Origin: an uncultured Gammaproteobacteria bacterium
GTDB taxonomy: Bacteria; Patescibacteriota; Microgenomatia; Levybacterales; UBA12049
Assembly: GCA_964406285.1 (NCBI GenBank)
Contig: CAYORA010000004.1
Span: 1 to 36,736 of the forward strand
Direction of reading: 5' to 3'
Length of the DNA: 36,736 bases
Shown: positions 13,511 through 30,378 of the stretch, piece by piece
Layout of the letters: each line of letters begins with the position of its first letter
Position numbering within the stretch: the stretch's first letter is position 1
Notes under the pieces: model-generated
Told to the model about the DNA's origin: nothing
Seen by the model: only the letters and a program-made list of their open reading frames with translations
Databases searched by the model: none
Made by a program: the position numbers and the translations under genes

Positions 13511-13525
13511 TTATTTTTTCTTCGC
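13501..13525. terminator. hairpin GCGAAGA-N11-TCTTCGC enclosing both stop codons of a convergent gene pair (possible bidirectional terminator)
   Basis: 7-bp stem (13501-13507 and 13519-13525). The loop taattattttt contains TAA (+) and TTA (= TAA on the minus strand). T-rich sequence follows on the minus strand. Weak by canonical standards. Confidence 0.25.
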
Positions 13526-14935
13526 GATTATCACGACGTAAGTAAATAAATCTCTTGGACCAAAGCTAAATTTTTCTAGTTCAAATCCTGATTTTAGTAG
13601 AAGATTTTTAATTTGCTTTTTAGATTTTACCTTTGTTATTTCTTCGGGATGAAGTCTAATTTTTTTACCTAAAATATCATTTAGAATGAAATGCATCGAG
13701 TTTAGAAATAATACACTTATTCCAAACGCAGGAGGCCAGAAGAGGACAATTTTTCCTTCTTTTTTTAGAACTCTTTTAAATTCCTTTAAGATGCTTAAAA
13801 TTTCTTTTTCTGTAAAATGTTCCATAACTCCTAAGTTGTAAATACCGTCAAAACTTTCTTTTTTTGCTGGTATTCTAAAGATGCTTCCGTGGATGATTTC
13901 ACACCTGTCTTTGTACAGGCGTTTATAGAGATTAAGAGCACCTGTTGAGATATCAAGTGCTGTAACATTTATATATTTAATAATGTCAGCATCCACCTGG
14001 CCACCACCAGAACCTGCATGGAGAACATTAGAGCCTTTCTTAAAAGTATTTTTTATATGACGGTTTAAATTCTGCCTAATGATATATTTACGATAAAAAA
14101 TTGCCACTGTATCATAAAGAATTTTTCTATTTCTTTTATCAAACTTCCAATATTCATCCCATTCATCTTCAACGCTTGATCTAAATTTACCTGGGGTTAG
14201 TAATTGTGGAGTATAAAGGAACAGATCTTGATACGTATTAAATAAGTAAAATGTTTTTAATAATAAAATCAGGCTTGTGTAAATATCCTTAAAAGTCATT
14301 TTGGAGTTTCCATAAGTTCGCGCTGGTAATTCAATAGAGATTTCTGAGATTTTAAATTTATTAACATGTAGAAAGAACATGCTTTCAAAAAAGAAAGAAT
14401 AACTATTAGATTCAATCTTCGAAAATATATCTTTAGGAATTTGTTCTAAATTATAAAGTCTGAATGCGCTTGTAGCGTCGTATGGTATTTTTAAGAGCTT
14501 TTTTGTTAAAAAGTGTGCAGTTAGTGTTAAAGATTTTCTAACTACATTCCATTCAGATAGACTATTTTTAGAAATATATCTGGATCCTACTATCACGTCA
14601 CCAGTATTTTTTTTAATTAAAAATCTTTTTATGTCTTCAGGTTTGTGAGTGAAATCTGAATCCATCGTAATTAGATTTTTATATTTATTTAAATACGCAA
14701 AGCTAATTGCGTCTTTATGAGCGCTTCCTATTCCTAGTTTTCTTTTTCTAAATAATAAAAAAACAGAAGAGTCTTTCTTTATTAAATCTTTAATAATTTT
14801 AGTAGTGCCATCTTTTGAGTTATCATCTATAAACAAAATATCTGAAGTAATTTTTGTTTTTTTTATTCGGGTGTAAATTGTTAAGATATTATTCTTTTCG
14901 TTATAGGTGGGGATTGCTATAAGAACTTTTTTCAT
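13511..14935 (-). CDS. fusion protein: DPM1-like polyprenyl-phosphate glycosyltransferase (GT2) plus class I SAM methyltransferase
   Basis: N-terminal half: IAIPTYNEKNNI, FIDDNSKDGT, MDSDFTHKPEDI, GSRY, DATSAFRLY, RTYGNSKM (dolichyl/polyprenyl-phosphate sugar synthase pattern). C-terminal half: VLHAGSGGGQVD (SAM motif I), ALDIS, FDGIYNLGVMEHF, LKKEGKIVLFWPP. An SD-like AAGGAAA lies 7 nt upstream of the ATG. Confidence 0.8.
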   Translation of the reverse strand: MKKVLIAIPTYNEKNNILTIYTRIKKTKITSDILFIDDNSKDGTTKIIKDLIKKDSSVFLLFRKRKLGIGSAHKDAISFAYLNKYKNLITMDSDFTHKPEDIKRFLIKKNTGDVIVGSRYISKNSLSEWNVVRKSLTLTAHFLTKKLLKIPYDATSAFRLYNLEQIPKDIFSKIESNSYSFFFESMFFLHVNKFKISEISIELPARTYGNSKMTFKDIYTSLILLLKTFYLFNTYQDLFLYTPQLLTPGKFRSSVEDEWDEYWKFDKRNRKILYDTVAIFYRKYIIRQNLNRHIKNTFKKGSNVLHAGSGGGQVDADIIKYINVTALDISTGALNLYKRLYKDRCEIIHGSIFRIPAKKESFDGIYNLGVMEHFTEKEILSILKEFKRVLKKEGKIVLFWPPAFGISVLFLNSMHFILNDILGKKIRLHPEEITKVKSKKQIKNLLLKSGFELEKFSFGPRDLFTYVVIIAKKK

Positions 14936-14960
14936 CTATATTTCCTTTTATCAATAGTTG

Positions 14961-14969
14961 ATTCTAGCA
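14961..14969 (-). promoter_or_regulatory. extended -10 box TGcTAGAAT, 25 nt upstream of ATG 14935 (leadered, with an AAGGAAA SD)
   Basis: The minus strand reads cTGCTAGAATcaactattgataaaaggaaatatagATG. Confidence 0.45.
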
Positions 14970-15033
14970 GAACCAATTTGATAATTCTATGTAGATTTAA
15001 TTGAAACAGCAAGCTTTATGATATTTTAAAATT

Positions 15034-15921
15034 ATGAAAACAGAAAAAATAATTTGTCCAGTTTGTAATTCGAATGAAATAAAAATACTAAGACCAAGCG
15101 AAGTAAATCCAAAAAAAATCTCATTTACGTACAAATTTACAAAGGAAACTAAAAAAACCTTTCAAGTAAACAGATGTTCGAATTGTTCACATATTTTTTG
15201 TTACCCACTTCCTAAAAACATATATAAAAATTATAAAGATGTTGTAGATCAGGTTTATTTAAAATATTCTGAATCCAGAAAGCAATCTGCAGAAGAAATC
15301 TTAAAAAAATTAAATATGTATAAAAGCCATGGACGCATTCTTGATATAGGATGTGCTACGGGTGATTTTCTTCTTGTAGCGAAAGAAGCAGGTTATGAGG
15401 TTGAAGGATTAGAGCTTTCAAAATGGTCATCAAAAATCGCAGAAAAAAAAGGATTAAAAGTTTACAGAGATACAATGAAAGTTCTGTCAAAAAAATATCC
15501 ACGTCGTTATGATCTGATTACAATGTGGGGTGTAATTGAGCATTTCGAATATCCCTCTGAGGAAATGATTTATATTAACAAACTTCTTAAAAAAAATGGC
15601 ATACTTGCTCTTTGGACTGGAGATGTTGATAGTATTACCAGTAAATTATTAGGGAAGAATTGGTGGTATTGGCAAGGCCAACACATACAGTATTTTACTG
15701 GGAAAAGTATGGATATCCTAACAAAGAAGTCAGGTATTAAGCATTTGAAAACTTATTTATATCCTCAAGCAATGAATCTTAATCAACTAAATGATTCATT
15801 AAGAAGATATGCACATAGAAATTTAATTTTAGTTTTTATAAAGCCATTTTTTCTAATAAAACATATTTGGTATTTAAGAATTCCAGGGGAGATGTTATGG
15901 ATTGGAAGGAAAATTAAATAA
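15034..15921 (+). CDS. SAM-dependent methyltransferase with N-terminal 4-Cys zinc ribbon
   Basis: CPVCNS...CSNCSH, then SAM motif I ILDIGCATGDFL, YDLITMWGVIEHF, and LKKNGILALWTGD. Confidence 0.8.
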   Translation: MKTEKIICPVCNSNEIKILRPSEVNPKKISFTYKFTKETKKTFQVNRCSNCSHIFCYPLPKNIYKNYKDVVDQVYLKYSESRKQSAEEILKKLNMYKSHGRILDIGCATGDFLLVAKEAGYEVEGLELSKWSSKIAEKKGLKVYRDTMKVLSKKYPRRYDLITMWGVIEHFEYPSEEMIYINKLLKKNGILALWTGDVDSITSKLLGKNWWYWQGQHIQYFTGKSMDILTKKSGIKHLKTYLYPQAMNLNQLNDSLRRYAHRNLILVFIKPFFLIKHIWYLRIPGEMLWIGRKIK

Positions 15922-17664
15922 TTATTTTCTTTTAACAAATGCACGAAATAAAAATAGAAATAGAGCCGCAAAAACTCCAATACTTAAATATTTAAATTGT
16001 TTGTAAATACTTATGTCAGAATATTTTAGTTCAATTTTCTGCAGTCCTCTAGGAAGTTTCGCATTTATTACACCTCTTTCTCCCGGATAAATATTTACCT
16101 TTTTACCATTTGATCTCAGTTCCCATCCTGGATAAAAAAGTGTGTTTTCTTTTATTATTAAAGGAGTTTTTGCATCTATAATATAAATGTGCCTCGTGGA
16201 GTTTCTAGAAATTTCTTCTATGTCCGCTTGACCTTGCAGGATTTCTAAATGTGATTTTGGTAGCTCGGAAAACCAAAAATTATCATGATCTGCCCATTTA
16301 TTGTTTAAGAAATAAGCAACTCTTCCCTCGTCCTTTGTGCTCTCCCAAACATAATCTCGTAAATTTGCATCCGTAATTGTAGAAATTACTGTTCTATGAC
16401 CCCAGTTTAATATTGTATAGAGAACAGTGATAATTAAAAGCGCGTAAATTATTCTTTTTGTTTTAGCGTTATAGAAATTAAGTATAAAGAAGCCTGCAAG
16501 AACAGAAGTTGTAAATGCAATTGGTAAAAGGAGTCTTCCGGTTGGGGGGAACATCCAAAAGAGCGGAAATAATTTCCATATAAAAAATGATCCTGGGTGC
16601 ATTAGAAAAAGAAAAATAAAAAATAATACTAACCAAAAAATAAAATCCTTTTTGAATATTGGTTTTATTTTCTTCCTAAATAGCGCAATTATACTTATAA
16701 AAATAATTAATAATTGCGTGTATCCTATTATAAGAGCAAGCTCACCGTAATGACCTTGAAAAAGAAAACCTAATTTCCAGGGAGAGTAAAACAACTGATG
16801 AAATGGATAAAAATAAAGTTCACTACTTGGATATGGATAAATGTAAGGCGCATAAATAATGAATGAAGACCATAAGTAAATTGATGAAAGGCATCCAAGA
16901 ATAAGCATTGCTAAAATATTCATAAATTTTCTCTTACCTTTTCTAAGGCAATAAAAAACAGAGTATAAAAACATAATTCCTACAATTGTTAAAGCCATTA
17001 AGGGATGTGCCTGGAAAAGAATTGCAGTAAAAATTCCAAGTAGAATTAAATGAATTATTTGTTTTGAGTTAAAATACTTAATTAAGAAATAAAATGTAAG
17101 AGGGGCAAGTGTAAAAATGGTAGATTCGCCAAGGGTTGCGCGAAAATGGACATCAATAAGATGATAAGGATTAAAAATATAAAAAATTCCAGAAGAAAAT
17201 GCTGCAAGCCTATTATTAGTTAGGTCTTTTATAAATAAATACATAAAAATTCCTGAAAAAAATAAGCTTAAGCCCAAGTAAATTTTCATACTCAGAATAA
17301 AGCTGAAACCTAAAAAATGAAAAAAGGAAACCAAATAATATGGAAGGGAATAGTTAAAAATAAAGAGTGGATTTCCGTATGTTGCGTTTAATTCTCCCGC
17401 CCAAGAGGGAATTAGATTGCCCTCACGAAGAGAATCATAAAAAGCCATAATTCTATAAATGTGAACATTAAAATCTCCACTTTCATAATCACCTGGCCTC
17501 AAAAGGCTTAATAGCGGAAGAATCGAAACCAGAATCAAGATCTTGAAGAGACTTATTTCTTTTTTAGGATAAATATATTTATAAATTAAAAGTCCAACAG
17601 TTAATAATAAAATCCCAGTTATACTTAAGAGGACAGTTCTGTATGGATCAGAGAACATGAGCAT
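15922..17664 (-). CDS. large polytopic membrane protein, GT-C-like (YfhO/PTPS-related-like)
   Basis: About 14 hydrophobic segments followed by a C-terminal extracytoplasmic domain. The first loop has GDYESGDFNVHIYRIMAFYDSLREGNLIPSW...GNPLFIFNYSLPYY. Alternative start ATG 17658 lies 6 nt downstream of a TATAAT box. Confidence 0.55.
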   Translation of the reverse strand: MLMFSDPYRTVLLSITGILLLTVGLLIYKYIYPKKEISLFKILILVSILPLLSLLRPGDYESGDFNVHIYRIMAFYDSLREGNLIPSWAGELNATYGNPLFIFNYSLPYYLVSFFHFLGFSFILSMKIYLGLSLFFSGIFMYLFIKDLTNNRLAAFSSGIFYIFNPYHLIDVHFRATLGESTIFTLAPLTFYFLIKYFNSKQIIHLILLGIFTAILFQAHPLMALTIVGIMFLYSVFYCLRKGKRKFMNILAMLILGCLSSIYLWSSFIIYAPYIYPYPSSELYFYPFHQLFYSPWKLGFLFQGHYGELALIIGYTQLLIIFISIIALFRKKIKPIFKKDFIFWLVLFFIFLFLMHPGSFFIWKLFPLFWMFPPTGRLLLPIAFTTSVLAGFFILNFYNAKTKRIIYALLIITVLYTILNWGHRTVISTITDANLRDYVWESTKDEGRVAYFLNNKWADHDNFWFSELPKSHLEILQGQADIEEISRNSTRHIYIIDAKTPLIIKENTLFYPGWELRSNGKKVNIYPGERGVINAKLPRGLQKIELKYSDISIYKQFKYLSIGVFAALFLFLFRAFVKRK

Positions 17665-17681: not shown

Positions 17682-18935
17682 TTAAATTACTTCTACTTTT
17701 GGAAGAGGAAATATAAAATGGCCGCCTTTTTTAAGATAATTCTTTTCTCTTATTAAAAATTCTTCTCTAAAAAACCAAGGTAAAACGATCATGTAGTCAG
17801 GTTGGTTAATTCTAGCTTGTTCTTCGGAAATGATCGGAATTCCGACTGATGCGATGACTTTCCCATGTTTTTCAGTATTTCTTTCAACGGCGAATTTAAT
17901 AAGTGAATTATCAATTTCGAAATATTGAAGAAGAGTATTTCCTCGAGTAGATGCGCCATAAAGATATATCGTTTTTTTATCTTTTTGTAATTTTTGAATT
18001 AGGTTTAATAGTTCTTTTTTGTTAGCTTCAATTCTTTTTGCAAAATCCTTGTAGGTTTTTTTATTCTCCAGTTTTAACTCTTTTTCATTGTCTCTAACTT
18101 TTTGAACATTTTTCGAAATTTCTCTTTTCCCTTTTAAAGCGATATAAGTTCTAAAACTTCCACCGTTTAAAGCTCTCATTTCTACATCAAAAATTTCCAG
18201 CCCATGTCTGTCAAGAAGATTTGTTAACGATAAGAGCGAGTAATACTCGAGGTGCTCATGAACTATATTATCGAATGCGTTTAATTTAAGCATGCCTACT
18301 AAATAATTTTGCTGTATTACGAATATACCGTCTTCATTCATTATTTTTTTAACGTCTGAGACAAATTTATTTGGATCTTCCATGTCATAAAAACATGAAA
18401 TTGCTGTGACGATATCCATTTTTTTATTTTTTATTTTTTTTGAAAATGCTTCAAAACTAAAGAAGTCATTAATTACTTTATTAGAATATTTCTTACTTTC
18501 TATTGCAAATTTTTCAATTGGTTCTACTGCGATTCTATAAACATTTTTTGGATAATTGCTCAAAAGCGTACCGTCATTCGCACCGATGTCTACTACAGAA
18601 ATTTCTTTCAGTGGTTTCTTTATTTTTTTAAGTGATTCTTTAACGATTCCATTTAATTCATCTTTCATAGTTTTGTTAATTCCTGATTTATATCCATACC
18701 TTTCCGTGTATAGGGAGGACTTAGGGGTAGTATGTTTGAGTTGAAGCAAAAAGCATTTTTTGCATAGAACAAGAGTTAAGGGAAATGCTTTAGGTTTTCT
18801 TTTTGTTTTTAAGAAGTCTGAAAGATGAAGATTCCCAAGAGAAATAATTTCAACTAAATCCTTTGAGTTACAAGACCTGCATTTTTTAATCGAAAGAGAT
18901 TTGGGGGTGCTTTTTTTGTTTCGATTTTTTTGCAT
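17682..18935 (-). CDS. NDP-hexose C-methyltransferase (TylCIII/TcaB9-like three-domain architecture), paralog 1
   Basis: N-terminal Zn ribbon CRSCNS...LCKKCFLLQL, SAM motif VVDIGANDGTLL, conserved FDNIVHEHLEYYS, and a C-terminal Rossmann-like domain IYLYGASTRGNTLLQY...DYMIVLPWFF. Confidence 0.8.
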   Translation of the reverse strand: MQKNRNKKSTPKSLSIKKCRSCNSKDLVEIISLGNLHLSDFLKTKRKPKAFPLTLVLCKKCFLLQLKHTTPKSSLYTERYGYKSGINKTMKDELNGIVKESLKKIKKPLKEISVVDIGANDGTLLSNYPKNVYRIAVEPIEKFAIESKKYSNKVINDFFSFEAFSKKIKNKKMDIVTAISCFYDMEDPNKFVSDVKKIMNEDGIFVIQQNYLVGMLKLNAFDNIVHEHLEYYSLLSLTNLLDRHGLEIFDVEMRALNGGSFRTYIALKGKREISKNVQKVRDNEKELKLENKKTYKDFAKRIEANKKELLNLIQKLQKDKKTIYLYGASTRGNTLLQYFEIDNSLIKFAVERNTEKHGKVIASVGIPIISEEQARINQPDYMIVLPWFFREEFLIREKNYLKKGGHFIFPLPKVEVI

Positions 18936-19042: not shown

Positions 19043-19567
19043 ATGAAATTTACTAAAACTAAGTTTAATGAATTACTGATAGTTGAAACAGATCAGTTTG
19101 ATGACGAAAGAGGATATTTGGCTAAATATTATGATGAAGATTTTTATAAAAAAAATAATATTAAATTTAAATTAACCCAAGTAAAATTTGTTTCCACCAA
19201 AACAAAAGCAACTATAAGAGGTCTTCACATGCAGTCAAAACCATATGAGGAGGCAAAAATTGTCAGATGTGTAAAAGGAAAAATATTTGAAGTTGCATTG
19301 GATTTAAGAAAAAACTCTAAAACTTATGGCAAGTGGTTTGGTCAGGAGTTTTCCGAAGATGATAAAAAATGTCTTTATATTCCTAAGGGTTTTGCGCATG
19401 GATACCAAACTCTTGTAAATAACACTGATGTCCTATATTTAATGTCAGGAGAATTTTCATTGCTACATAATATTGGCTATAGATGGAATGATCCCGCTTT
19501 TGGTATTTCCTGGCCCCTAAAACCAACTGTAATGGCCCAGAAAGATAAAAATTGGCCACTGGTATGA
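19043..19567 (+). CDS. rfbC: dTDP-4-dehydrorhamnose 3,5-epimerase
   Basis: DERGYL, RGLHMQ, KIVRCVKGKIFEVALDLRKNSKTYGKW, LYIPKGFAHGYQTL, and YRWNDPAFGISWP are canonical RmlC cupin motifs. Confidence 0.93.
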   Translation: MKFTKTKFNELLIVETDQFDDERGYLAKYYDEDFYKKNNIKFKLTQVKFVSTKTKATIRGLHMQSKPYEEAKIVRCVKGKIFEVALDLRKNSKTYGKWFGQEFSEDDKKCLYIPKGFAHGYQTLVNNTDVLYLMSGEFSLLHNIGYRWNDPAFGISWPLKPTVMAQKDKNWPLV

Positions 19568-20430
19568 CTGACTACTTAATTATTGGAAAAAATGGACAGC
19601 TTGGAAATGCTCTATTTGAAAATTTAACAAAACGTAATCAAAGTTTTGTGGCATATTCAAGGAAAGAATTAGATATAACTGATAAAAAATCACTAGTAAG
19701 AATATTGAAAAAAACCAAACCGAAAGCAATCATTAACACCTCTGCCTATCATGTAATTGGAGAGTGCGAAGAAAATCCACTTGAAGCGTTTAGAATTAAC
19801 TGCGTTAGTGTTGCAAATTTGGCAAGATTGTCAAAGGAGATTGGCTCTATTTTTGTTACATATAGCACTAATTATGTTTTTGATGGAGCAAAAAATTCTC
19901 TTTATCGGGAAGATGATAAAGCATATCCTTTGCAAATGTACGGGTTAAGTAAATATGCAGGGGAAATAAATGCTCTTAATGAATACAGTAAGGGAACTTA
20001 TGTCATAAGAACGTGTGGGATTTATGGAAATGGTAAGAAGGGTAGTAGGAGTAAAAAGGGGAACTTTATTTTAAAAATTTTAAATGAGTCAAAAAAAAGT
20101 GGGGAAATAAAAGTGAGTAAAAAACAAATAGTTAACCCGACATACGCATACGATTTAGCGAGCTCTACAGTTGATTTAATTAATCTAAAACCTGCTTCTG
20201 GAATTTATCATCTGGTAAATGAAGGAATTTGCAGTTGGTATGACTTTACTAAAATGATATTAAAATACAAAAAAATAAATGCCAAAGTAATAGCGCTGGG
20301 TAGTAAAGAGGAGAATACGGGATTTAAAAGGCCAACTTACTCTGCCATAGGAAACTATAAAGCGAAAAAACTTGGAGTGGTGCTTCCTCAAATTAATTCA
20401 GGACTGGAAAGATATCTAGATGAAATATAA
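19564..20430 (+). CDS. rfbD: dTDP-4-dehydrorhamnose reductase
   Basis: YLIIGKNGQLGNAL (Rossmann), INTSAYHVIGECEENPLEAFRINCVSVANLA, and YGLSKYAGE (catalytic YxxxK). ATG 19564 overlaps the rfbC stop as ATGA, so it is preferred over the track TTG at 19552. Confidence 0.9.
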   Translation: MTDYLIIGKNGQLGNALFENLTKRNQSFVAYSRKELDITDKKSLVRILKKTKPKAIINTSAYHVIGECEENPLEAFRINCVSVANLARLSKEIGSIFVTYSTNYVFDGAKNSLYREDDKAYPLQMYGLSKYAGEINALNEYSKGTYVIRTCGIYGNGKKGSRSKKGNFILKILNESKKSGEIKVSKKQIVNPTYAYDLASSTVDLINLKPASGIYHLVNEGICSWYDFTKMILKYKKINAKVIALGSKEENTGFKRPTYSAIGNYKAKKLGVVLPQINSGLERYLDEI

Positions 20431-20662
20431 AAATATATTTTTACTTACAGGGGTTTTTTATGTCTTATTTCTTTTAGTTTTTTTATATTCATTTAGATAC
20501 TTAAGAACTTTTTTTCCACCTGCGGAAATTTCGGATTATAAGATAATTGGCTATTCACATTATTATGGGTATCCGTTTTATTTTGATACGCTAGCATTCT
20601 TTATTATTGTCACCTTCCCTAGTCTAATATTTATTTTTTTATGGAGATTAAGAAAAAAATAA
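20420..20662 (+). CDS. small two-TM membrane protein, possibly the N-terminal part of the following gene
   Basis: 80-aa ORF with two hydrophobic helices. It overlaps rfbD by 11 nt and ends in A AAA AAA TAA, inside the start of the next ORF. Confidence 0.45.
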   Translation: MKYKNIFLLTGVFYVLFLLVFLYSFRYLRTFFPPAEISDYKIIGYSHYYGYPFYFDTLAFFIIVTFPSLIFIFLWRLRKK

Positions 20663-22614
20663 TTAGGAAAAATTATAAAGAAATTGGAATAATTTTAATA
20701 TTAAATCTTCTTGCAATTACGGTTAATGTTATTTCCCATTGTTCAGGTTATTTAAAATTTGCAAACTTTGATTATCAAGCATTTTTAGCTTGGAACTATG
20801 CTGCATTTACAGATTTAGTTCCCTATAGAGATTTGTATTATCCCTATGGACTTCTTTCCTACTATAAAGATAGTAATATTTTCTTTTTATTGCTTTATAT
20901 CTTCTTATCATTAATAACCATAAATTTACTGATTTTCACACTTATCCAAATATTTAGAAATAAATTTATAGCTTATTTTACGATAATTATGTTTTTCGCA
21001 TTCACTATTTTAATTTCAAATTTCAGTACTTTAAATAGATATGGAATTTCCACAGTATTTGCTTTAACTATATCCTACATATTTTACAAAGGAGTTAATA
21101 GTCGAAAATTTTATTTTGTTTCTGGCTTAATGCTCTCATCTATTTTTTGGTTAGTACACGATCAGGGAATTTTTGGATTAATAATTTTTGTCTTTTTTTA
21201 TTTATTTAGAAAGGTTAGTGAATACAAAAATAAAGAAAAGACAAATCTTTTAAAATCAGTACTAAATGACTCATTATATTTTTTAACAGGTTTTTTGGTG
21301 GGTCTTATTCCATTTATTATTTATCTAACAAAAAACAGCGCATTAACAGATTTCTGGTATTTTTTAACAGTAAGCCTCCCGGAATTTCCCGTTATGTCAA
21401 AGACTCCATTCTTTAATTTGTTTTTTTCGGTAAATAATATTTTTACTGTTGGAGTTTTATCTCTATCAATTCTTTTTTTAGTTTATAAATTATTAAATAA
21501 AGAAAAGATTGCGCTCTTTACCTACACGGAGATTTCATTAACGTTAACCTTACTCCTTTTAGAACAAAAGAACATTGTCAGATTAATGGAGCATGCAATT
21601 ACTTTTGTTGCGTTTATTCTTTTTGCAATTATATTATGGGAAGTTTTAAAGTTAAAAATAATAACTGAAAAAACAAAGAAAAAAATTTACCTAATGACGT
21701 TATTTTTAATTTTGATATTTTTTTACTTTCCATATGGAAATCGTTCAGGGATCAACTCCGCTTCAGATTTAAAAATTAAACCATTAAATTGCTACGCATC
21801 TAATATTAATAAAGCAAAAAACCTCGATGAATATCAAAGAGTTGTTGAAGGTTTAAGCAAATATAAAAACTTTAATAATAAAATATTTAGTTTTCCAGGG
21901 GATCCAATTTTCTATATTCTTTTAAATCAAAAACTTCCTTTTTACCCTAGTGTTTATGAAGCATCTTCTGAAAAGTCACAGTTCCAGGTAATTAAATATT
22001 TGAAAAACGAGGATATTAAATATGTCGTAATTAACAGTGAGAATAAGTCAATTCAAGACGAAGTGCCAAATTATATTAGGGCTACTTATGAATTGAGATA
22101 CATTCTTAATAATTATGTCTTTAGGGATAAGATCGGCAAATTTTTAATACTAGAAAAGAAAGAAAATACTGATTTTTTTACAAAGCTAAATGATCCTTTA
22201 GTTGCTGAGTATCAAAAATTTCTTCTTAATATAAATTTGGAATCGGTCCCTTATTCAGAAGGTTTACATAAGAATAAAATTATTACAGATAAAAAGAATA
22301 AATTTTTAACGGAAGATTTAAGTCAAGCAAAGACAAACGAATATCTTAAAAATAATAAAACTAATTCGAGCAATCTTTTCCTACTTATTAAAAATAAAAG
22401 CTCTAATGATTATTATTCGTTAAAATTTAGGACAGTTGATGGTTTTGAGACAAATGTAAAAATGAAATCGTGCAAAGAAAACTACTGTATAGTTAACTTA
22501 TCAAGGTTACCTTTATTTTATAAAATGCGAGAAATTCAAAGCATCAGATCAAAAGACGAAATTTTAGTAAGCATTTTAATGCCATCAAATGATAATATTA
22601 CGAAGCTATGGTAA
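20641..22614 (+). CDS. polytopic membrane protein with large C-terminal extracytoplasmic domain (GT-C-like or polymerase-like, family unknown)
   Basis: About 12 hydrophobic segments in the first ~370 aa. The first loop is aromatic/acidic: FDYQAFLAWNYAAFTDLVPYRDLYYPYG. About 280 hydrophilic residues follow. I recognise no specific family. Confidence 0.55.
   Translation: MEIKKKIIRKNYKEIGIILILNLLAITVNVISHCSGYLKFANFDYQAFLAWNYAAFTDLVPYRDLYYPYGLLSYYKDSNIFFLLLYIFLSLITINLLIFTLIQIFRNKFIAYFTIIMFFAFTILISNFSTLNRYGISTVFALTISYIFYKGVNSRKFYFVSGLMLSSIFWLVHDQGIFGLIIFVFFYLFRKVSEYKNKEKTNLLKSVLNDSLYFLTGFLVGLIPFIIYLTKNSALTDFWYFLTVSLPEFPVMSKTPFFNLFFSVNNIFTVGVLSLSILFLVYKLLNKEKIALFTYTEISLTLTLLLLEQKNIVRLMEHAITFVAFILFAIILWEVLKLKIITEKTKKKIYLMTLFLILIFFYFPYGNRSGINSASDLKIKPLNCYASNINKAKNLDEYQRVVEGLSKYKNFNNKIFSFPGDPIFYILLNQKLPFYPSVYEASSEKSQFQVIKYLKNEDIKYVVINSENKSIQDEVPNYIRATYELRYILNNYVFRDKIGKFLILEKKENTDFFTKLNDPLVAEYQKFLLNINLESVPYSEGLHKNKIITDKKNKFLTEDLSQAKTNEYLKNNKTNSSNLFLLIKNKSSNDYYSLKFRTVDGFETNVKMKSCKENYCIVNLSRLPLFYKMREIQSIRSKDEILVSILMPSNDNITKLW
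20653..20662 (+). other. A AAA AAA heptamer in X XXY YYZ register immediately followed by TAA (candidate -1 frameshift or homopolymer-error site)
   Basis: ORF 20420 reads aga aaa aaa taa. The -1 frame is exactly the frame of ORF 20641 (aaa aaa ata att). Confidence 0.35.
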
Positions 22615-23345
22615 AGGCAAAAAATATTTGTTTAGTAATTCCTGCTTATAATGAGTCAAAGAACATTCCGTTGGTTGTTAAAGGAATTAGGAAAGAATTT
22701 CCAAATTCCAGAATTATTGTCGTTGATGATTCACTTGAGCCTGAAAGTAACAAAACTAGAGGTGCATTAAAAGGATTTAGGAATCTTGACGTTATTTCAA
22801 GGAAGAAAAAACTTGGGAGAGGGAGTGCAGTGTTAGAAGGTTTTAAATACGGATTAAAATATAAAAACGCTAAATATTTCTATGAAATAGATGCTGATTT
22901 TTCACATGACACAACACACCTGATTAGATTTATGAAGAAAATGAATGAAGAAAAAGTAGGGATGGTTATTGGTTCGCGATATACGAAAGGAGGAAAATCT
23001 TTAAATGTGACTTTGAAGAGAAAATTACTTAGCAAGATGATAAATAAATTTCTATTCGTAATGCTCGATGTAAGATTGTCTGATTACACATCTGGATACA
23101 GACTATATGAAAGAAAAGCAGTTGAATATTTAGCAAAAGCGAAAATGAAATCTTCAGGGTTTATAACGCTTTCAGAAATAACATACAAGTTAAATAAAAA
23201 AGGTTTTAAAATAGGTGAGGTTCCTGTTACTATTTCTACAAGAAAATACGGTAAATCAACAATGGGTCTTCATGAGTTGACTACATCTCTTTTGTTTATT
23301 CTAAAAATGAAAATTGAAGAAGAGTATTTGACTAAATTAAAATAA
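22608..23345 (+). CDS. DPM1-like polyprenyl-phosphate glycosyltransferase (GT2)
   Basis: LVIPAYNESKNI, IIVVDDS, EIDADFSHDTTHL, GSRYTKGG, DYTSGYRLYE, TRKYGKSTM. Overlaps the upstream membrane-protein gene by 7 nt. Confidence 0.88.
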   Translation: MVKAKNICLVIPAYNESKNIPLVVKGIRKEFPNSRIIVVDDSLEPESNKTRGALKGFRNLDVISRKKKLGRGSAVLEGFKYGLKYKNAKYFYEIDADFSHDTTHLIRFMKKMNEEKVGMVIGSRYTKGGKSLNVTLKRKLLSKMINKFLFVMLDVRLSDYTSGYRLYERKAVEYLAKAKMKSSGFITLSEITYKLNKKGFKIGEVPVTISTRKYGKSTMGLHELTTSLLFILKMKIEEEYLTKLK

Positions 23346-23347
23346 AC

Positions 23348-24586
23348 TCAAACTATTTGAGGGGTCGGGATTGCTAAAATAAATTTTCCTCCATTTTTTC
23401 GAAAAGTGTGTTCTCTTTGAAGTATTGCGTGACTATAGTTCCATACTAATAATAAATAATAATCTGGTCTTTTTTTCTCTGTACCGGTAACTGGTATATG
23501 GGTACCGGGAGTGTAGAGGCCAAATTTATATTCAGTTCTGTCTAAAATATAATCCAGATAATTTGTGTTTATACCGCAGTAATTAAGCAGCGTATTTGAT
23601 TTCGCAGAAGCACCATATCCAGCAATAGAGTACCCTTCTTTTTTTAAATTTTCTAGAATATTCACAAGCTTATTTTTAATGTAATTCACACGGCTCGGCA
23701 TTCCTTTATAGGTGTTTAGTTCTTGAAGTCCAATTTCTTTTTCATTTCTTAGCATTTGGTTAACACTTTTTTTCACTTTTCTGTTATTTGATGAATGAGT
23801 AATATAAAATCTTATCGATCCTCCTTGCGTGTCGTGTTCCTCCACATCAATAATTTTAAGTCCAATTTTTTTTACTAACATATTTAATGGAGAAAGAGAA
23901 AAGAAGGAGCGATGTTCATGATAAACATTGTCAAATTGATTATTAAATAATAAAAACGGAAAATACTGACATTCAATTACTGCAATACCATTTTTTGAGA
24001 GCATTATTTTTATTCCATTTATAAAATCCTTAGGATCTGTTACGTGAGCTATAACATTATTTGCGATTATTATCCCAGCTTTTCCTTTTTCTTCAGAAAT
24101 TTTTTTTGCTGTGCTGCTATTAAAAAAATATGGGAGAGTTTCTATCTTTTGGCTATTTGCATAATCAACTACGTTTTTAGCGGGATCAATTCCTAGAATT
24201 TTACATCCTGCTTTTTGAAAATGTTTAAGTAATGTACCATCATTGCTTGCAACTTCTAAAGTGAAATTTTTCGCTTCTTTTGGAAATCTTTCGAGAACGT
24301 CCATTGCATATTTTTTGAAATATGGAATTGACGATGGGGAGCCACCTGTATAAAAAGCATAATTATTTCCAAATAAGAGTTCATCATTTACATCATGTTT
24401 TAGTTGAACTAAAAAGCACGATTTACAAACTACTACTATTAATGGGAATTTTTTTTCTTTTACATCGGGAGATTTTATAAATAAATCTGCAAGTGGCATT
24501 TTGCCTAAATCTAAAACCTGAAGGAGCCTTTTACTTCCACAAATCCTACACTCATTTCTTTCCTTTACAAGTTTATTAAGTTTCAT
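23348..24586 (-). CDS. NDP-hexose C-methyltransferase (TylCIII/TcaB9-like), paralog 2
   Basis: Zn ribbon CRICGSKRLLQVLDLGKMPLADLF...VCKSCFLVQL, SAM motif LEVASNDGTLL, FDNVYHEHRSFFS, and C-terminal IAGYGASAKSNTLLNY...DYYLLLVWNY. Confidence 0.85.
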   Translation of the reverse strand: MKLNKLVKERNECRICGSKRLLQVLDLGKMPLADLFIKSPDVKEKKFPLIVVVCKSCFLVQLKHDVNDELLFGNNYAFYTGGSPSSIPYFKKYAMDVLERFPKEAKNFTLEVASNDGTLLKHFQKAGCKILGIDPAKNVVDYANSQKIETLPYFFNSSTAKKISEEKGKAGIIIANNVIAHVTDPKDFINGIKIMLSKNGIAVIECQYFPFLLFNNQFDNVYHEHRSFFSLSPLNMLVKKIGLKIIDVEEHDTQGGSIRFYITHSSNNRKVKKSVNQMLRNEKEIGLQELNTYKGMPSRVNYIKNKLVNILENLKKEGYSIAGYGASAKSNTLLNYCGINTNYLDYILDRTEYKFGLYTPGTHIPVTGTEKKRPDYYLLLVWNYSHAILQREHTFRKNGGKFILAIPTPQIV

Positions 24587-29154: not shown

Positions 29155-30378
29155 ATGAGCTATTTAAAAACGACAATTGTAGGAGTTTCGTGGATAGGTG
29201 CTCTTAAATTTTTTTCCAGAGGATCTTCGATAATTAGAACTTTAGTAATAGCAAGAATTCTTTCTCCCTCACAGTTCGGTGTGTTTGGAATTGCAACCTT
29301 GATACTATCACTGGTTGAGACTTTAACGGAAACTGGTATAAATGTAGTTCTCATTCAAAAAAAAGAAAAAATCGAAGATTATATTAATACGGCCTGGATA
29401 ATCTCCATTCTTAGAGGTGCACTCATATTTTTAGTAATATTAATTTCTGCAGGATTCGTTTCAACTTTTTTTAAATCTGAGGAGTCAAGAAATCTACTAA
29501 TCCTAATATCTTTTGTTCCGCTGGTTAGGGGATTTATAAATCCAGCAGTAGCGAAATTTCAAAAAGAACTAAATTTTAAAAAAGAATTTTTCTATAGAAT
29601 AAGCATCGTAGCCGTAGAAACAGTTGTTTCAATTGTTTTAGTACTTTTAACAAGAGATCCAGTCTCACTAGTTTGGGCTTTAATTGGTGGAGCAGCTTTT
29701 GAAGTAATTATCTCATTTTTAATTGTTAAACCAAGACCACAATTAAACTTTGATAGAAATATTTTTAAAGACATTTTTTCCCACAGTAAATGGATTACAT
29801 CATCAGGTATTTTTAGTTACTTATTTGCAAATGGAGATAATATAGTGGTTGGTCGCACTCTTGGAACGTCATCTTTGGGAATCTATGATATGGCTTATAC
29901 AATCGCTCTTTTACCCACAACTGAACTTGCTGAAGTGGTTGCTAAGGTAACCTTTCCTGTATATGTGCAGTTTTCAGAGGATAAAAAAAGATTAAAGAAA
30001 GCATACCTAAAAACAACGCTAATAATTGCTGTTTTAACACTTCCATTGGTTTTAATATTTATATTTTTTCCTAGGGAGATTATCCAAATATTTTTAGGAG
30101 AAAAATGGATTGAGGCAGCTAAGATATTACAAATAATGTCTATTTTTGCTTTCATCTCTGCAGTATTTAGTCCAAGCGGTGCAATTTTTTATTCTGTAAA
30201 AAAACAAAAATATACTTTCATAGTAAGCTTTGTAGCATTTATTGTTATGATTAGTTTAATAAGTCCTTTTATAAATGTATATGGGCTTGCAGGAGCTGCA
30301 ATGGCTGCTACGATTGGGGTAATTTCTCCTGTACCTCTGGTTATTTATTTTCTATACAAAATATTTCGTAGTAAATAA
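29155..30378 (+). CDS. Wzx-type oligosaccharide flippase (MOP superfamily, polysaccharide biosynthesis protein)
   Basis: About 12 TM segments. The N-terminus GVSWIGALKFFSRGSSIIRTLVIARILSPSQFGVFGIA...ETGINVVLIQ is typical of the Polysacc_synt/Wzx family. Confidence 0.8.
   Translation: MSYLKTTIVGVSWIGALKFFSRGSSIIRTLVIARILSPSQFGVFGIATLILSLVETLTETGINVVLIQKKEKIEDYINTAWIISILRGALIFLVILISAGFVSTFFKSEESRNLLILISFVPLVRGFINPAVAKFQKELNFKKEFFYRISIVAVETVVSIVLVLLTRDPVSLVWALIGGAAFEVIISFLIVKPRPQLNFDRNIFKDIFSHSKWITSSGIFSYLFANGDNIVVGRTLGTSSLGIYDMAYTIALLPTTELAEVVAKVTFPVYVQFSEDKKRLKKAYLKTTLIIAVLTLPLVLIFIFFPREIIQIFLGEKWIEAAKILQIMSIFAFISAVFSPSGAIFYSVKKQKYTFIVSFVAFIVMISLISPFINVYGLAGAAMAATIGVISPVPLVIYFLYKIFRSK

What the first reader, a model, noticed from the sequence alone, without database searches (positions are those of the whole stretch)
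13511..15921. DPM1-like lipid-phosphate sugar synthase fused to a SAM methyltransferase, divergent from a zinc-ribbon methyltransferase
ORF 13511..14935 (minus strand) joins a textbook polyprenyl-phosphate glycosyltransferase (MDSDFTHKPEDI, GSRY, DATSAFRLY, RTYGNSKM) to a class I methyltransferase (VLHAGSGGGQVD...GVMEHF...KIVLFWPP). Across a 98-bp divergent promoter region lies a second methyltransferase (15034) with a 4-Cys ribbon. The fusion suggests that the lipid-linked sugar, or its product, is methylated at the membrane. That would yield methylated monosaccharide donors for the adjacent GT-C-like protein (15922). I do not know of a characterised enzyme with this architecture.
Basis: partly seen in the sequence, partly recalled or inferred. 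Interest (0 to 1): 0.6.

Follow-up and report, generated by a model that had tools for sequence, protein, structure and literature searches.

The report
Lipid-sugar synthase fused to methyltransferase
This is a real, widely conserved but never studied enzyme that most likely loads a rare methyl-branched deoxysugar onto a membrane lipid carrier and methylates it there, so that a membrane transferase next door can add it to the cell surface.

Summary
ORF 13511..14935 (-) encodes 474 aa. It has an N-terminal GT2 domain of the DPMS/ArnC/GtrB class, which glycosylates polyprenyl phosphate, and a C-terminal class I SAM methyltransferase. It lies 98 bp from a divergent four-Cys methyltransferase, beside a confirmed GT-C-fold protein. 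The fusion is not an artefact: full-length relatives occur in 209 species genomes across many phyla.

New here:
- In 48 of 53 loci with enough flank, the fusion lies within 10 kb of a sugar 3-C-methyltransferase. The usual order is C-methyltransferase, SDR reductase, fusion.
- The carried sugar is therefore probably a 3-C-methyl-6-deoxyhexose, not mannose. In this window it would come from the dTDP-rhamnose route, via rmlC and rmlD next door.
- The methyltransferase domain also exists as a stand-alone 228-aa family encoded beside GT-C genes. This favours action on the lipid-linked sugar.

The substrate and the order of the steps are inferred, not shown. I found no characterised enzyme with this architecture. 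The scan had already noted this fusion on other genomes, with similar readings.

Verdict: a new variant of the three-component extracytoplasmic glycosylation scheme, of moderate interest.

The parts
14231..14935 (-). Fusion protein residues 1-235. This is a GT-A fold GT2 domain of the polyprenyl-phosphate glycosyltransferase class, ending in a hydrophobic helix (215-234) equivalent to interface helix 2 of PfDPMS.
   Evidence: Pfam PF00535, E 1.7e-20. Best PDB sequence hits are PfDPMS 5mlz (E 1.1e-14), ArnC and GtrB. Those three enzymes also fill the top 14 Foldseek hits. The PfDPMS residues E12, D39, D89, D91, H94, R117, R131, S135, F177, R202 and K208 correspond to E13, D38, D92, D94, H97, R119, R133, T137, F181, R206 and K212.
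14177..14230 (-). Linker, residues 236-253.
   Evidence: This stretch has lower pLDDT (61-80) and no secondary structure in the AF2 model. It is variable in alignment A1.
13514..14176 (-). Fusion protein residues 254-474. This is a class I SAM methyltransferase domain with a conserved aromatic N-terminal cap (W259, Y262, W263, Y274, Y281, R282) and a hydrophobic insert (helix 406-421).
   Evidence: Pfam PF08241, E 7.9e-15. Invariant residues are L305-H306-A307-G308, G310, G312, D328, N367, G369, E372, H373, W400 and P401. The fold matches small-molecule methyltransferases such as MitM, ChlM and AtmM. Stand-alone relatives are 55-63% identical.
14936..15033 (.). 98-bp intergenic region between the divergent genes.
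   Evidence: Coordinates, sequence. Promoter-like matches are not above chance.
15034..15921 (+). Accessory methyltransferase (Methyltransf_23) with an N-terminal four-Cys zinc ribbon.
   Evidence: Pfam E 1.9e-24. The four Cys are invariant in 13 relatives. Relatives lie within 10 kb of the fusion in 16 of 80 loci, and sit immediately next to it in 8 of the 13 placed by gene order. One 774-aa relative carries this protein fused to the C-terminus of the fusion (41% identity, E 2e-80).
15922..17664 (-). GT-C-fold polytopic glycosyltransferase of the PTPS_related family (PF10131), with a conserved YESGD motif in its first outer loop. It is the predicted user of the lipid-linked sugar.
   Evidence: AF2 model has pLDDT 94.6 and pTM 0.94. 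The top 32 Foldseek PDB hits are all GT-C enzymes, including STT3, PglB, AftD, ALG12, EmbC, Pmt4 and ArnT. 75 of 79 relatives match PF10131.
17682..18935 (-). NDP-hexose 3-C-methyltransferase (Zn-binding Methyltransf_13 + Methyltransf_23 + Methyltransf_14). It is the predicted maker of the methyl branch on the donor sugar.
   Evidence: Pfam. E 1.1e-56 to D-mycarose 3-C-methyltransferase 4rv9, and E 1e-37 to TcaB9 and KijD1. A member of this family lies within 10 kb of the fusion in 48 of 53 loci that have at least 5 kb on both sides.
19043..19567 (+). RmlC, dTDP-4-dehydrorhamnose 3,5-epimerase.
   Evidence: TIGR01221 scores 164.7 bits, above its cut-off of 155.75.
19552..20430 (+). RmlD, dTDP-4-dehydrorhamnose reductase.
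   Evidence: TIGR01214 scores 250.7 bits, above its cut-off of 224.05.
29155..30378 (+). Wzx-like flippase. It is the only flippase candidate in the window, and its link to this module is weak.
   Evidence: Pfam Polysacc_synt_3, E 5e-75. No GtrA-like gene is present in the window.

Best explanation
The gene encodes the cytoplasmic-face enzyme of a Gtr/Arn-type extracytoplasmic glycosylation module.
1. Neighbouring enzymes make a nucleotide-activated 3-C-methyl-6-deoxyhexose. These are RmlC, a TylC3/MtmC-type 3-C-methyltransferase and RmlD in the window, plus RmlA-like and RmlB enzymes elsewhere in the genome.
2. The N-terminal GT2 domain is held at the membrane by hydrophobic interface helices, since it has no transmembrane helix. 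It transfers that sugar to polyprenyl (undecaprenyl) phosphate.
3. The fused C-terminal SAM methyltransferase then O-methylates the lipid-linked sugar at the membrane surface. In about a fifth of loci, including this one, the zinc-ribbon methyltransferase adds a further methyl group.
4. The lipid-linked sugar is flipped across the membrane.
5. The adjacent GT-C-fold protein transfers it to an unknown surface acceptor.

Shown here: the domain identities, conservation of the catalytic and phosphate-binding residues, conservation of the SAM motifs, the reality and spread of the fusion, the gene neighbourhood, and the GT-C fold.
Inferred: the identity of the sugar, the lipid acceptor, O-methylation as the chemistry, methylation after rather than before transfer, and the acceptor.
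For: GT2 domain:
- The best sequence and fold matches are the three solved polyprenyl-phosphate GT2 enzymes, PfDPMS, ArnC and GtrB.
- The best NCBIfam hits are PgfS, PpgS, ArnC and AglJ, all well below their cut-offs.
- The PfDPMS acceptor-phosphate residues R117, R131 and S135 and the A-loop residues R202 and K208 (PMC5526996) align to R119, R133, T137, R206 and K212, which are invariant or nearly so in 69 relatives.
- The genome has UppS.

Fusion: 209 species genomes carry it, and 76 of the 80 loci kept cover both domains almost end to end.

Sugar:
- A 3-C-methyltransferase lies within 10 kb in 48 of 53 well-flanked loci. It is 1 or 2 genes upstream on the same strand in 33 loci, usually with an SDR reductase between it and the fusion. 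The reductase stop overlaps the fusion start in 3 of the 4 gene-called contexts of that layout.
- In the window, RmlC and RmlD pass their curated cut-offs.
- RmlB and an RmlA-like gene lie on contig C5.

Methyltransferase:
- Motif I and the beta-2 aspartate D328 are invariant.
- 58 of 60 sampled stand-alone relatives (55-63% identical) form one clade beside the Patescibacteria fused clade.
- In 3 contexts examined they sit directly beside GT-C-like genes, with no nucleotide-sugar genes nearby.

GT-C: fold confirmed. A polytopic protein lies within 3 genes of the fusion in 47 of 60 loci.

Precedent for tailoring a polyprenyl-P-monosaccharide before it is flipped: the epimerisation of lipid-linked pentofuranoses (PMC11127046), and ArnD (from my own knowledge).
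Against: - No biochemical datum exists for any member of the family.
- Two PfDPMS residues are not conserved: the metal ligand Q93 is T96, and K178 is F182.
- The methyltransferase domain matches solved structures only over the Rossmann core, so homology says nothing about its substrate.
- Motif I has an invariant His where Asp or Glu is usual.
- Some sugar O-methyltransferases act on nucleotide sugars, so the order of steps is open.
- No dedicated small flippase lies in the module.
- The polytopic neighbours in other phyla are heterogeneous, and 7 of 10 sampled have no Pfam match.
- I could not inspect the model's coordinates to see whether the two active sites face the same surface.
Confidence: 0.55

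Rival explanations
1. Same module, reversed order. The methyltransferase domain O-methylates the nucleotide-activated sugar in the cytoplasm, and the GT2 domain then transfers the already methylated sugar to polyprenyl phosphate.
For: The fusion sits at the end of a nucleotide-sugar operon: dehydratase-like SDR, C-methyltransferase, reductase, fusion. From my own knowledge, a few sugar O-methyltransferases are reported to act at the NDP-sugar stage. The fold resembles soluble small-molecule methyltransferases.
Against: Stand-alone relatives of the methyltransferase domain sit next to GT-C genes and away from nucleotide-sugar genes. The domain follows the GT2 domain in the polypeptide. It has a hydrophobic insert at residues 396-421, which is the most hydrophobic stretch of the protein in much of the family. 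From my own knowledge, most sugar O-methylations in natural-product pathways follow glycosyl transfer.
Confidence: 0.2
2. The GT2 domain is an ordinary glycan-elongating transferase acting on a lipid-PP-linked oligosaccharide, and the methyltransferase caps the added sugar. This would be a chain-modifying or chain-terminating enzyme like WsaE of Geobacillus stearothermophilus.
For: WsaE is a characterised methyltransferase + GT2 fusion that 2-O-methylates terminal rhamnose (PMC2943079). The Pfam GT2 model does not distinguish acceptor types.
Against: All the best sequence and structure matches are polyprenyl-phosphate transferases. The acceptor-phosphate triad and the R-x-x-G-x-S-K A-loop of DPMS are conserved. 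The domain order is the reverse of WsaE. GT-C genes, which need a lipid-P-sugar donor, are the constant neighbours.
Confidence: 0.1
3. The methyltransferase domain modifies something other than the sugar, for example a lipid, the carrier, or a protein partner. Alternatively it is a SAM-sensing regulatory domain.
For: Weak family hits include lipid- and quinone-directed methyltransferases: CMAS, UbiG/UbiE, ChlM and phosphoethanolamine N-methyltransferases. Homology gives no substrate information.
Against: The domain is tightly and widely linked to sugar-tailoring genes and GT-C genes. Catalytic-site conservation is typical of an active enzyme. Those weak hits cover only the SAM-binding core.
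Confidence: 0.1
4. The fusion is an assembly or frameshift artefact joining two neighbouring genes.
For: None found. The genome is a 69-contig draft.
Against: The same uninterrupted architecture occurs in 209 species genomes from many independent assemblies, at 40-82% identity.
Confidence: 0.01

Closest known systems
Polyprenyl/dolichyl-phosphate glycosyltransferases of family GT2: PfDPMS (5mlz), human/yeast DPM1, GtrB (5ekp), ArnC (9bhc), and GacI, CsbB, PgfS and PpgS
   Same: GT-A fold, DXD motif, acceptor-phosphate residues, R-x-x-G-x-S-K acceptor loop, hydrophobic interface helices, and a partnership with a GT-C enzyme.
   Different: There is no transmembrane domain. A SAM methyltransferase occupies the C-terminal position where PfDPMS, GtrB and ArnC carry TM helices. 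Q93 and K178 of PfDPMS are replaced. The donor is probably a C-methyl-branched 6-deoxyhexose rather than mannose, glucose or Ara4FN. All NCBIfam equivalog scores are far below their cut-offs.
Three-component extracytoplasmic glycosylation systems (GtrA/GtrB/Gtr*, CsbB/GtcA/YfhO, ArnC/ArnD/ArnEF/ArnT, pentofuranose systems; PMC11127046)
   Same: The logic is the same: charge polyprenyl phosphate on the inside, optionally tailor the lipid-linked sugar, flip it, and transfer it by a GT-C enzyme on the outside.
   Different: The tailoring step would be methylation, and it is fused to the charging enzyme. No GtrA-type flippase lies in the module. The acceptor is unknown.
WsaE of Geobacillus stearothermophilus NRS 2004/3a (PMC2943079)
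   Same: It is a characterised single polypeptide combining a sugar O-methyltransferase with GT2 domains acting on rhamnose.
   Different: In WsaE the methyltransferase is N-terminal. Its GT2 domains elongate a lipid-PP-linked rhamnan in an ABC-transporter pathway, and the enzyme is soluble and acts as a chain terminator.
AglP of Haloferax volcanii (PMC3871713; Magidovich et al. 2010)
   Same: It is a SAM-dependent methyltransferase in a lipid-linked glycosylation pathway. From my own knowledge, it acts on the dolichol-phosphate-bound glycan.
   Different: AglP is a stand-alone archaeal enzyme. It acts on a hexuronic acid within an oligosaccharide, not on a monosaccharide donor for a GT-C.
NDP-hexose 3-C-methyltransferases MtmC (4rv9), TcaB9 (3ndi), KijD1 (5t64) and TylC3 (for the neighbour 17682..18935)
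   Same: Same three-domain architecture, with E 1e-56 to 1e-37.
   Different: The known members serve antibiotic deoxysugar pathways. Here the gene belongs to a cell-envelope glycan module.

Membership tests
Polyprenyl-phosphate glycosyltransferase (GT2; DPMS/GtrB/ArnC class) | GT-A fold with a DXD metal and diphosphate site | tested here: met
   D92-S-D94 aligns to D89-A-D91 of PfDPMS. D94 is invariant and D92 nearly so in 69 relatives. Foldseek E values are 8e-14 to 1e-11 to DPMS, ArnC and GtrB.
Polyprenyl-phosphate glycosyltransferase (GT2; DPMS/GtrB/ArnC class) | Acceptor-phosphate binding residues (PfDPMS R117, R131, S135) | tested here: met
   These align to R119, R133 and T137. R133 is invariant and the other two are at least 90% conserved.
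Polyprenyl-phosphate glycosyltransferase (GT2; DPMS/GtrB/ArnC class) | Acceptor loop R-x-x-G-x-S-K (PfDPMS R202, K208) | tested here: met
   R206-T-Y-G-N-S-K212. R206 and S211 are invariant.
Polyprenyl-phosphate glycosyltransferase (GT2; DPMS/GtrB/ArnC class) | Metal ligand Q93 and phosphoester contact K178 of PfDPMS | tested here: not met
   These positions are T96 and F182 in the fusion, and the substitutions are conserved across the fusion family. The residues are specific to mannose synthases and may reflect a different donor.
Polyprenyl-phosphate glycosyltransferase (GT2; DPMS/GtrB/ArnC class) | Membrane attachment through TM helices or a partner | tested here: not met
   The AF2 model has no TM helix. 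Its most hydrophobic stretch (from residue 396) is modelled as a core strand plus helix 406-421 of the methyltransferase domain. The helix after the GT-A domain (215-234) is hydrophobic but below the TM threshold. This feature is not strictly defining: PfDPMS lacking residues 230-352 is active and membrane-targeted.
Polyprenyl-phosphate glycosyltransferase (GT2; DPMS/GtrB/ArnC class) | Transfer of a sugar to polyprenyl phosphate | not testable with these tools
   This needs an enzyme assay.
Class I SAM-dependent methyltransferase | Rossmann-like fold with the glycine-rich motif I | tested here: met
   PF08241 scores 55.7 bits against a cut-off of 21.2. L305, H306, A307, G308, G310 and G312 are invariant. 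The fold matches MitM, ChlM and AtmM.
Class I SAM-dependent methyltransferase | Acidic residue at the end of strand beta-2 that binds the ribose hydroxyls | tested here: met
   D328 (in A-L-D-I-S) is invariant in the fused and the stand-alone forms.
Class I SAM-dependent methyltransferase | Asp or Glu just before the glycines of motif I | tested here: not met
   His306 is invariant at this position. This is a family peculiarity and not a defining requirement.
Three-component extracytoplasmic glycosylation system | A GT-C-fold transferase encoded with the lipid-P-sugar synthase | tested here: met
   ORF 15922..17664: the top 32 Foldseek hits are all GT-C, and 75 of 79 relatives match PF10131. 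In other genomes a polytopic neighbour lies within 3 genes in 47 of 60 loci, but only 3 of 10 sampled hit GT-C families.
Three-component extracytoplasmic glycosylation system | A dedicated flippase (GtrA, GtcA or ArnEF type) | tested here: inconclusive
   The only GtrA_DPMS_TM domain in the genome is part of a different DPM1-like paralog on contig C5. A Wzx-like gene lies 13 kb away in the window.
WsaE-type methyltransferase/glycosyltransferase chain terminator | N-terminal methyltransferase followed by glycan-elongating GT2 domains in an ABC-transporter pathway | tested here: not met
   The domain order is reversed, there is a single GT2 domain of the lipid-phosphate class, and no wzm/wzt genes were seen in the window.

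The most novel reading that the evidence does not exclude
A conserved, horizontally mobile cassette builds a multiply methylated branched-chain 6-deoxyhexose directly on polyprenyl phosphate. The sugar would carry one C-methyl and one or two O-methyl groups. The cassette comprises a sugar 3-C-methyltransferase, a reductase, the GT2-methyltransferase fusion and, in some loci, the zinc-ribbon methyltransferase. This would be the first case of methyl tailoring of a lipid-phosphate monosaccharide donor. It would give GT-C enzymes in at least a dozen phyla a hydrophobic capping sugar for the cell surface. The stand-alone 228-aa relatives would extend the same chemistry to other GT-C donors.
Probability: 0.4. 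Interest if true: 0.65.

Novelty: new variant of a known kind. Interest (0 to 1): 0.5.

Why it matters
Methylated and branched sugars on bacterial surfaces affect hydrophobicity, phage and predator recognition, and antigenicity. How they reach extracytoplasmic glycans is known in only a few cases. If the fused enzyme methylates a polyprenyl-phosphate sugar, it adds a new kind of tailoring step to the three-component glycosylation scheme. It would also explain a gene cassette found in about 200 species, from ultra-small Patescibacteria to Planctomycetota, Acidobacteriota and Bdellovibrionota. The question is directly testable, because at least one carrier is in culture: Oligoflexus tunisiensis Shr3 (locus L037). 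The finding also corrects the database name 'dolichol-phosphate mannosyltransferase' given to these proteins.

Tried and rejected
- Kuenenia lead. The S-layer O-glycan of Kuenenia stuttgartiensis carries an unidentified 174.09-Da unit, described as a 'putative dimethylated deoxyhexose' (PMC5088730). That mass equals a C-methyl plus O-methyl deoxyhexose, and one contig titled 'Candidatus Kuenenia sp.' carries the cassette (L088). However, the fusion was found in only 1 of 41 genomes sampled from that family, on a 9.8-kb contig. I do not attribute the Kuenenia sugar to this cassette.
- Complex prediction of the fusion with the zinc-ribbon methyltransferase gave no verdict. It counts neither for nor against binding.
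- Triple fusion. P0076 (774 aa) joins the fusion to the zinc-ribbon methyltransferase. It is a single Logan contig, the two genes overlap by 11 nt in another genome, and no other triple fusion was seen among 68 loci. I treat it as weak support only.
- The promoter scan of the 98-bp region was not above chance.
- A profile of the methyltransferase domain against the PDB matched only generic or uncharacterised methyltransferases over the SAM core.
- Seven literature searches found no paper on this architecture. The library is limited to open-access papers and preprints, so this is not proof that none exists.
- In a sample of 300 other genomes of the window's phylum, the fusion was not found, and the stand-alone methyltransferase was found in only 2. 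Distribution is therefore sporadic.
Full report
**Observation.** Pfam places a Glycos_transf_2 domain at residues 6-146 (E 1.7e-20) and a Methyltransf_11 domain at residues 305-398 (E 7.9e-15). Both are far above the curated cut-offs. The next gene, 15034..15921 (+), starts 98 bp away on the other strand. It is a Methyltransf_23 protein (E 1.9e-24), and its four N-terminal cysteines are invariant in 13 relatives. Only the word 'promoter' is untested, since consensus promoter matches there are no more frequent than in shuffled sequence.

**The GT2 domain.**
- Against all solved structures, the best sequence match is the dolichyl-phosphate mannose synthase of Pyrococcus furiosus (5mlz, E 1.1e-14, residues 3-222). 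ArnC and GtrB follow.
- An AlphaFold2 model built on 69 relatives is confident (mean pLDDT 87.4, pTM 0.78). Its best Foldseek matches are the same three enzymes (E 8e-14 to 1e-11). All three glycosylate a polyprenyl phosphate.
- The paper on PfDPMS (PMC5526996) assigns the acceptor phosphate to R117, R131 and S135, the metal and diphosphate to D91 and Q93, and the gating acceptor loop to R202 and K208.
- In the HMMER alignment these residues correspond to R119, R133, T137, D94, T96, R206 and K212. All but T96 keep the chemistry, and all are invariant or at least 90% conserved in the family. K178 is also replaced, by F182.
- The domain therefore passes the tests for the lipid-phosphate class. 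It differs at two positions tied to the mannose donor.
- It has no transmembrane helix. A hydrophobic helix (215-234) follows the GT-A fold, where PfDPMS has interface helix 2. PfDPMS truncated after that point is still membrane-targeted and fully active.
- The genome encodes UppS, so a polyprenyl phosphate acceptor is available.

**The methyltransferase domain.**
- Motif I (L-H-A-G-x-G-G-G), the beta-2 aspartate D328, the N-L-G-V-M-E-H segment and F-W-P-P are invariant or nearly so in 69 fused relatives. They are equally conserved in 40 mixed fused and stand-alone sequences.
- An invariant His replaces the usual acidic residue of motif I.
- A cap of conserved aromatic residues (W259, Y262, W263, Y274, Y281) precedes the Rossmann core. 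A hydrophobic helix (406-421) with lower confidence is inserted late in the fold.
- Solved relatives match only the SAM-binding core and are generic. Homology therefore gives no substrate.

**The fusion is real and widespread.**
- The protein database returned more than 120 clusters covering 99-100% of the query, at 48-82% identity and with both Pfam domains.
- A scan of one genome per species found 209 genomes with a relative. 76 of the 80 loci kept cover both domains almost end to end.
- Record titles span Patescibacteria, Verrucomicrobiota, Planctomycetota, Acidobacteriota, Bdellovibrionota, Omnitrophota, Nitrospinota, Nitrospirota, Elusimicrobiota, Chloroflexota, Gemmatimonadota, Bacteroidota and several proteobacterial classes. 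They include the cultured Oligoflexus tunisiensis Shr3. Titles of metagenome bins can be wrong.
- Within the window's own phylum the gene is sporadic. It was not found in 300 other sampled genomes.
- The artefact explanation is excluded.

**Neighbourhood.** I called ORFs in the 80 loci and clustered them.
- A relative of the window's sugar C-methyltransferases lies within 10 kb of the fusion in 63 of 80 loci, and in 48 of 53 loci with at least 5 kb on both sides.
- It sits two genes upstream on the same strand in 25 loci and one gene upstream in 8. The usual order is C-methyltransferase, SDR reductase of about 315 aa, then the fusion.
- Among the gene-called contexts, four show that order, three of them preceded by a dehydratase-like SDR. 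In three of the four the reductase stop overlaps the fusion start.
- The window's copy (17682..18935) matches D-mycarose 3-C-methyltransferase at E 1.1e-56, and TcaB9 and KijD1 at about 1e-37.
- In the window, the genes beside that C-methyltransferase are rmlC and rmlD, both above the NCBIfam equivalog cut-offs. RmlB and an RmlA-like gene lie on another contig.
- The most economical reading is that the donor is a nucleotide-activated 3-C-methyl-6-deoxyhexose, here made through the dTDP-rhamnose route. The database name 'dolichol-phosphate mannosyltransferase' is misleading.

**Stand-alone relatives of the methyltransferase domain.**
- Residues 245-474 have hundreds of stand-alone relatives of about 228 aa, at 55-63% identity over nearly the whole domain. 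Many come from Patescibacteria.
- In a tree of 69 fused and 60 stand-alone domains, 58 stand-alone sequences form one clade next to the Patescibacteria fused clade. The tree needs only three changes of state. The rooting is uncertain, so I do not say which form came first.
- In three contexts examined, the stand-alone gene lies directly beside GT-C-like polytopic genes (PMT_2 or PTPS_related), with no nucleotide-sugar genes nearby. One of these contexts is syntenic with this window.
- SAM is cytoplasmic and GT-C enzymes act outside the membrane. A methyltransferase tied to GT-C genes most plausibly acts on their lipid-linked donor at the inner face. This is the main argument for placing methylation after transfer to the lipid, and it is an inference.

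**The GT-C partner.**
- ORF 15922..17664 has only weak direct Pfam hits, but 75 of 79 relatives match PF10131 PTPS_related.
- Its model is excellent (pLDDT 94.6, pTM 0.94). The top 32 PDB fold matches are all GT-C enzymes, including STT3, PglB, AftD, ALG12, EmbC, Pmt4 and ArnT.
- A Y-E-S-G-D motif in the first outer loop is conserved.
- Across the other loci, a polytopic protein of at least 400 aa lies within three genes of the fusion in 47 of 60 cases. These proteins belong to many families, and only 3 of 10 sampled hit a GT-C Pfam family.
- The Oligoflexus neighbour resembles ArnT-family and YfhO models in the ESM Atlas (TM 0.59-0.63).

**The zinc-ribbon methyltransferase.** Relatives lie within 10 kb of the fusion in 16 of 80 loci from several phyla. 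Of the 13 copies placed by gene order, 8 sit immediately next to the fusion. One 774-aa protein joins it to the C-terminus of the fusion (41% identity, E 2e-80), but this rests on a single contig. It is best read as an optional second tailoring enzyme.

**Mechanism and rivals.**
- Best model (confidence 0.55): nucleotide-sugar synthesis with a C-methyl branch, transfer to polyprenyl phosphate by the GT2 domain, O-methylation of the lipid-linked sugar by the fused domain and optionally by the zinc-ribbon enzyme, flipping, and transfer by the GT-C protein.
- Main rival (0.2): the same module with methylation at the nucleotide-sugar stage.
- A WsaE-like glycan-elongating and capping enzyme (0.1): this is disfavoured by the lipid-phosphate signature residues and by the domain order.
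- A non-sugar substrate or a regulatory role (0.1): this is not excluded by homology, but it fits the neighbourhood poorly.

**Comparison and novelty.**
- The system works like the Gtr, Csb/YfhO and Arn three-component systems. Tailoring of a lipid-phosphate monosaccharide before flipping has precedents (PMC11127046; ArnD from my own knowledge).
- What differs is the chemistry (methylation), its fusion to the charging enzyme in place of the usual TM domain, and the likely branched-chain deoxysugar.
- Seven searches of the open literature found no study of this architecture.
- The scan had already flagged this fusion on other genomes, with follow-ups reaching similar readings. I re-derived the main points independently.

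**Dead ends.** The Kuenenia S-layer 174-Da sugar lead, the complex prediction and the promoter scan are listed under Tried and rejected.

Noticed in passing
window 20641-24586: A second, parallel module. It comprises a 657-aa polytopic protein with no Pfam match, an unfused DPM1/PpgS-like GT2 of 245 aa (22608..23345, PpgS E 7.6e-24) and a second sugar C-methyltransferase (23348..24586, minus strand). The window may therefore load two different C-methyl sugars on lipid carriers, only one of them through a methyltransferase fusion.
   Followed up: partly
window 26594-29134: An 846-aa protein joins a GT2 domain to a PMT_2 (GT-C) domain, followed by a Wzx-like flippase gene (29155..30378). Syntenic relatives carry two such fusions (L097, 868 and 743 aa).
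   Followed up: no
G000:C5:20671-21786: A 399-aa paralog has the classical layout: a DPM1-like GT2 domain followed by the genome's only GtrA_DPMS_TM domain. It lies about 6 kb from the rmlA-like and rmlB genes (C5:13263-14980). It is a useful internal contrast to the TM-less methyltransferase fusion.
   Followed up: partly
G000:C51:1784-2347: A stand-alone 226-aa methyltransferase paralog is 31% identical to residues 283-473 of the fusion. It is more distant than the 55-63% identical stand-alone clade found in other Patescibacteria.
   Followed up: no
L094:7001-9404 and L096:7001-9420: In other Patescibacteria, the stand-alone 228-aa methyltransferase gene and a 576-578-aa polytopic gene converge with overlapping 3' ends. 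The 576-aa one gives a weak PMT_2 hit; the 578-aa one has no Pfam hit on record. The arrangement is a tight, conserved pair that deserves its own look.
   Followed up: partly
window 10299-36316: The window holds at least five GT-C-like or PMT_2-like polytopic proteins (10299, 15922, 26594, 31332, 34096) and several GT2, GT4 and GT17 genes. This is an unusually large share for a 0.93-Mb genome.
   Followed up: no
L004:8001-10325: A single 774-aa ORF joins the GT2 domain, the methyltransferase and the zinc-ribbon methyltransferase. It may be a genuine triple fusion or a one-base assembly error.
   Followed up: partly
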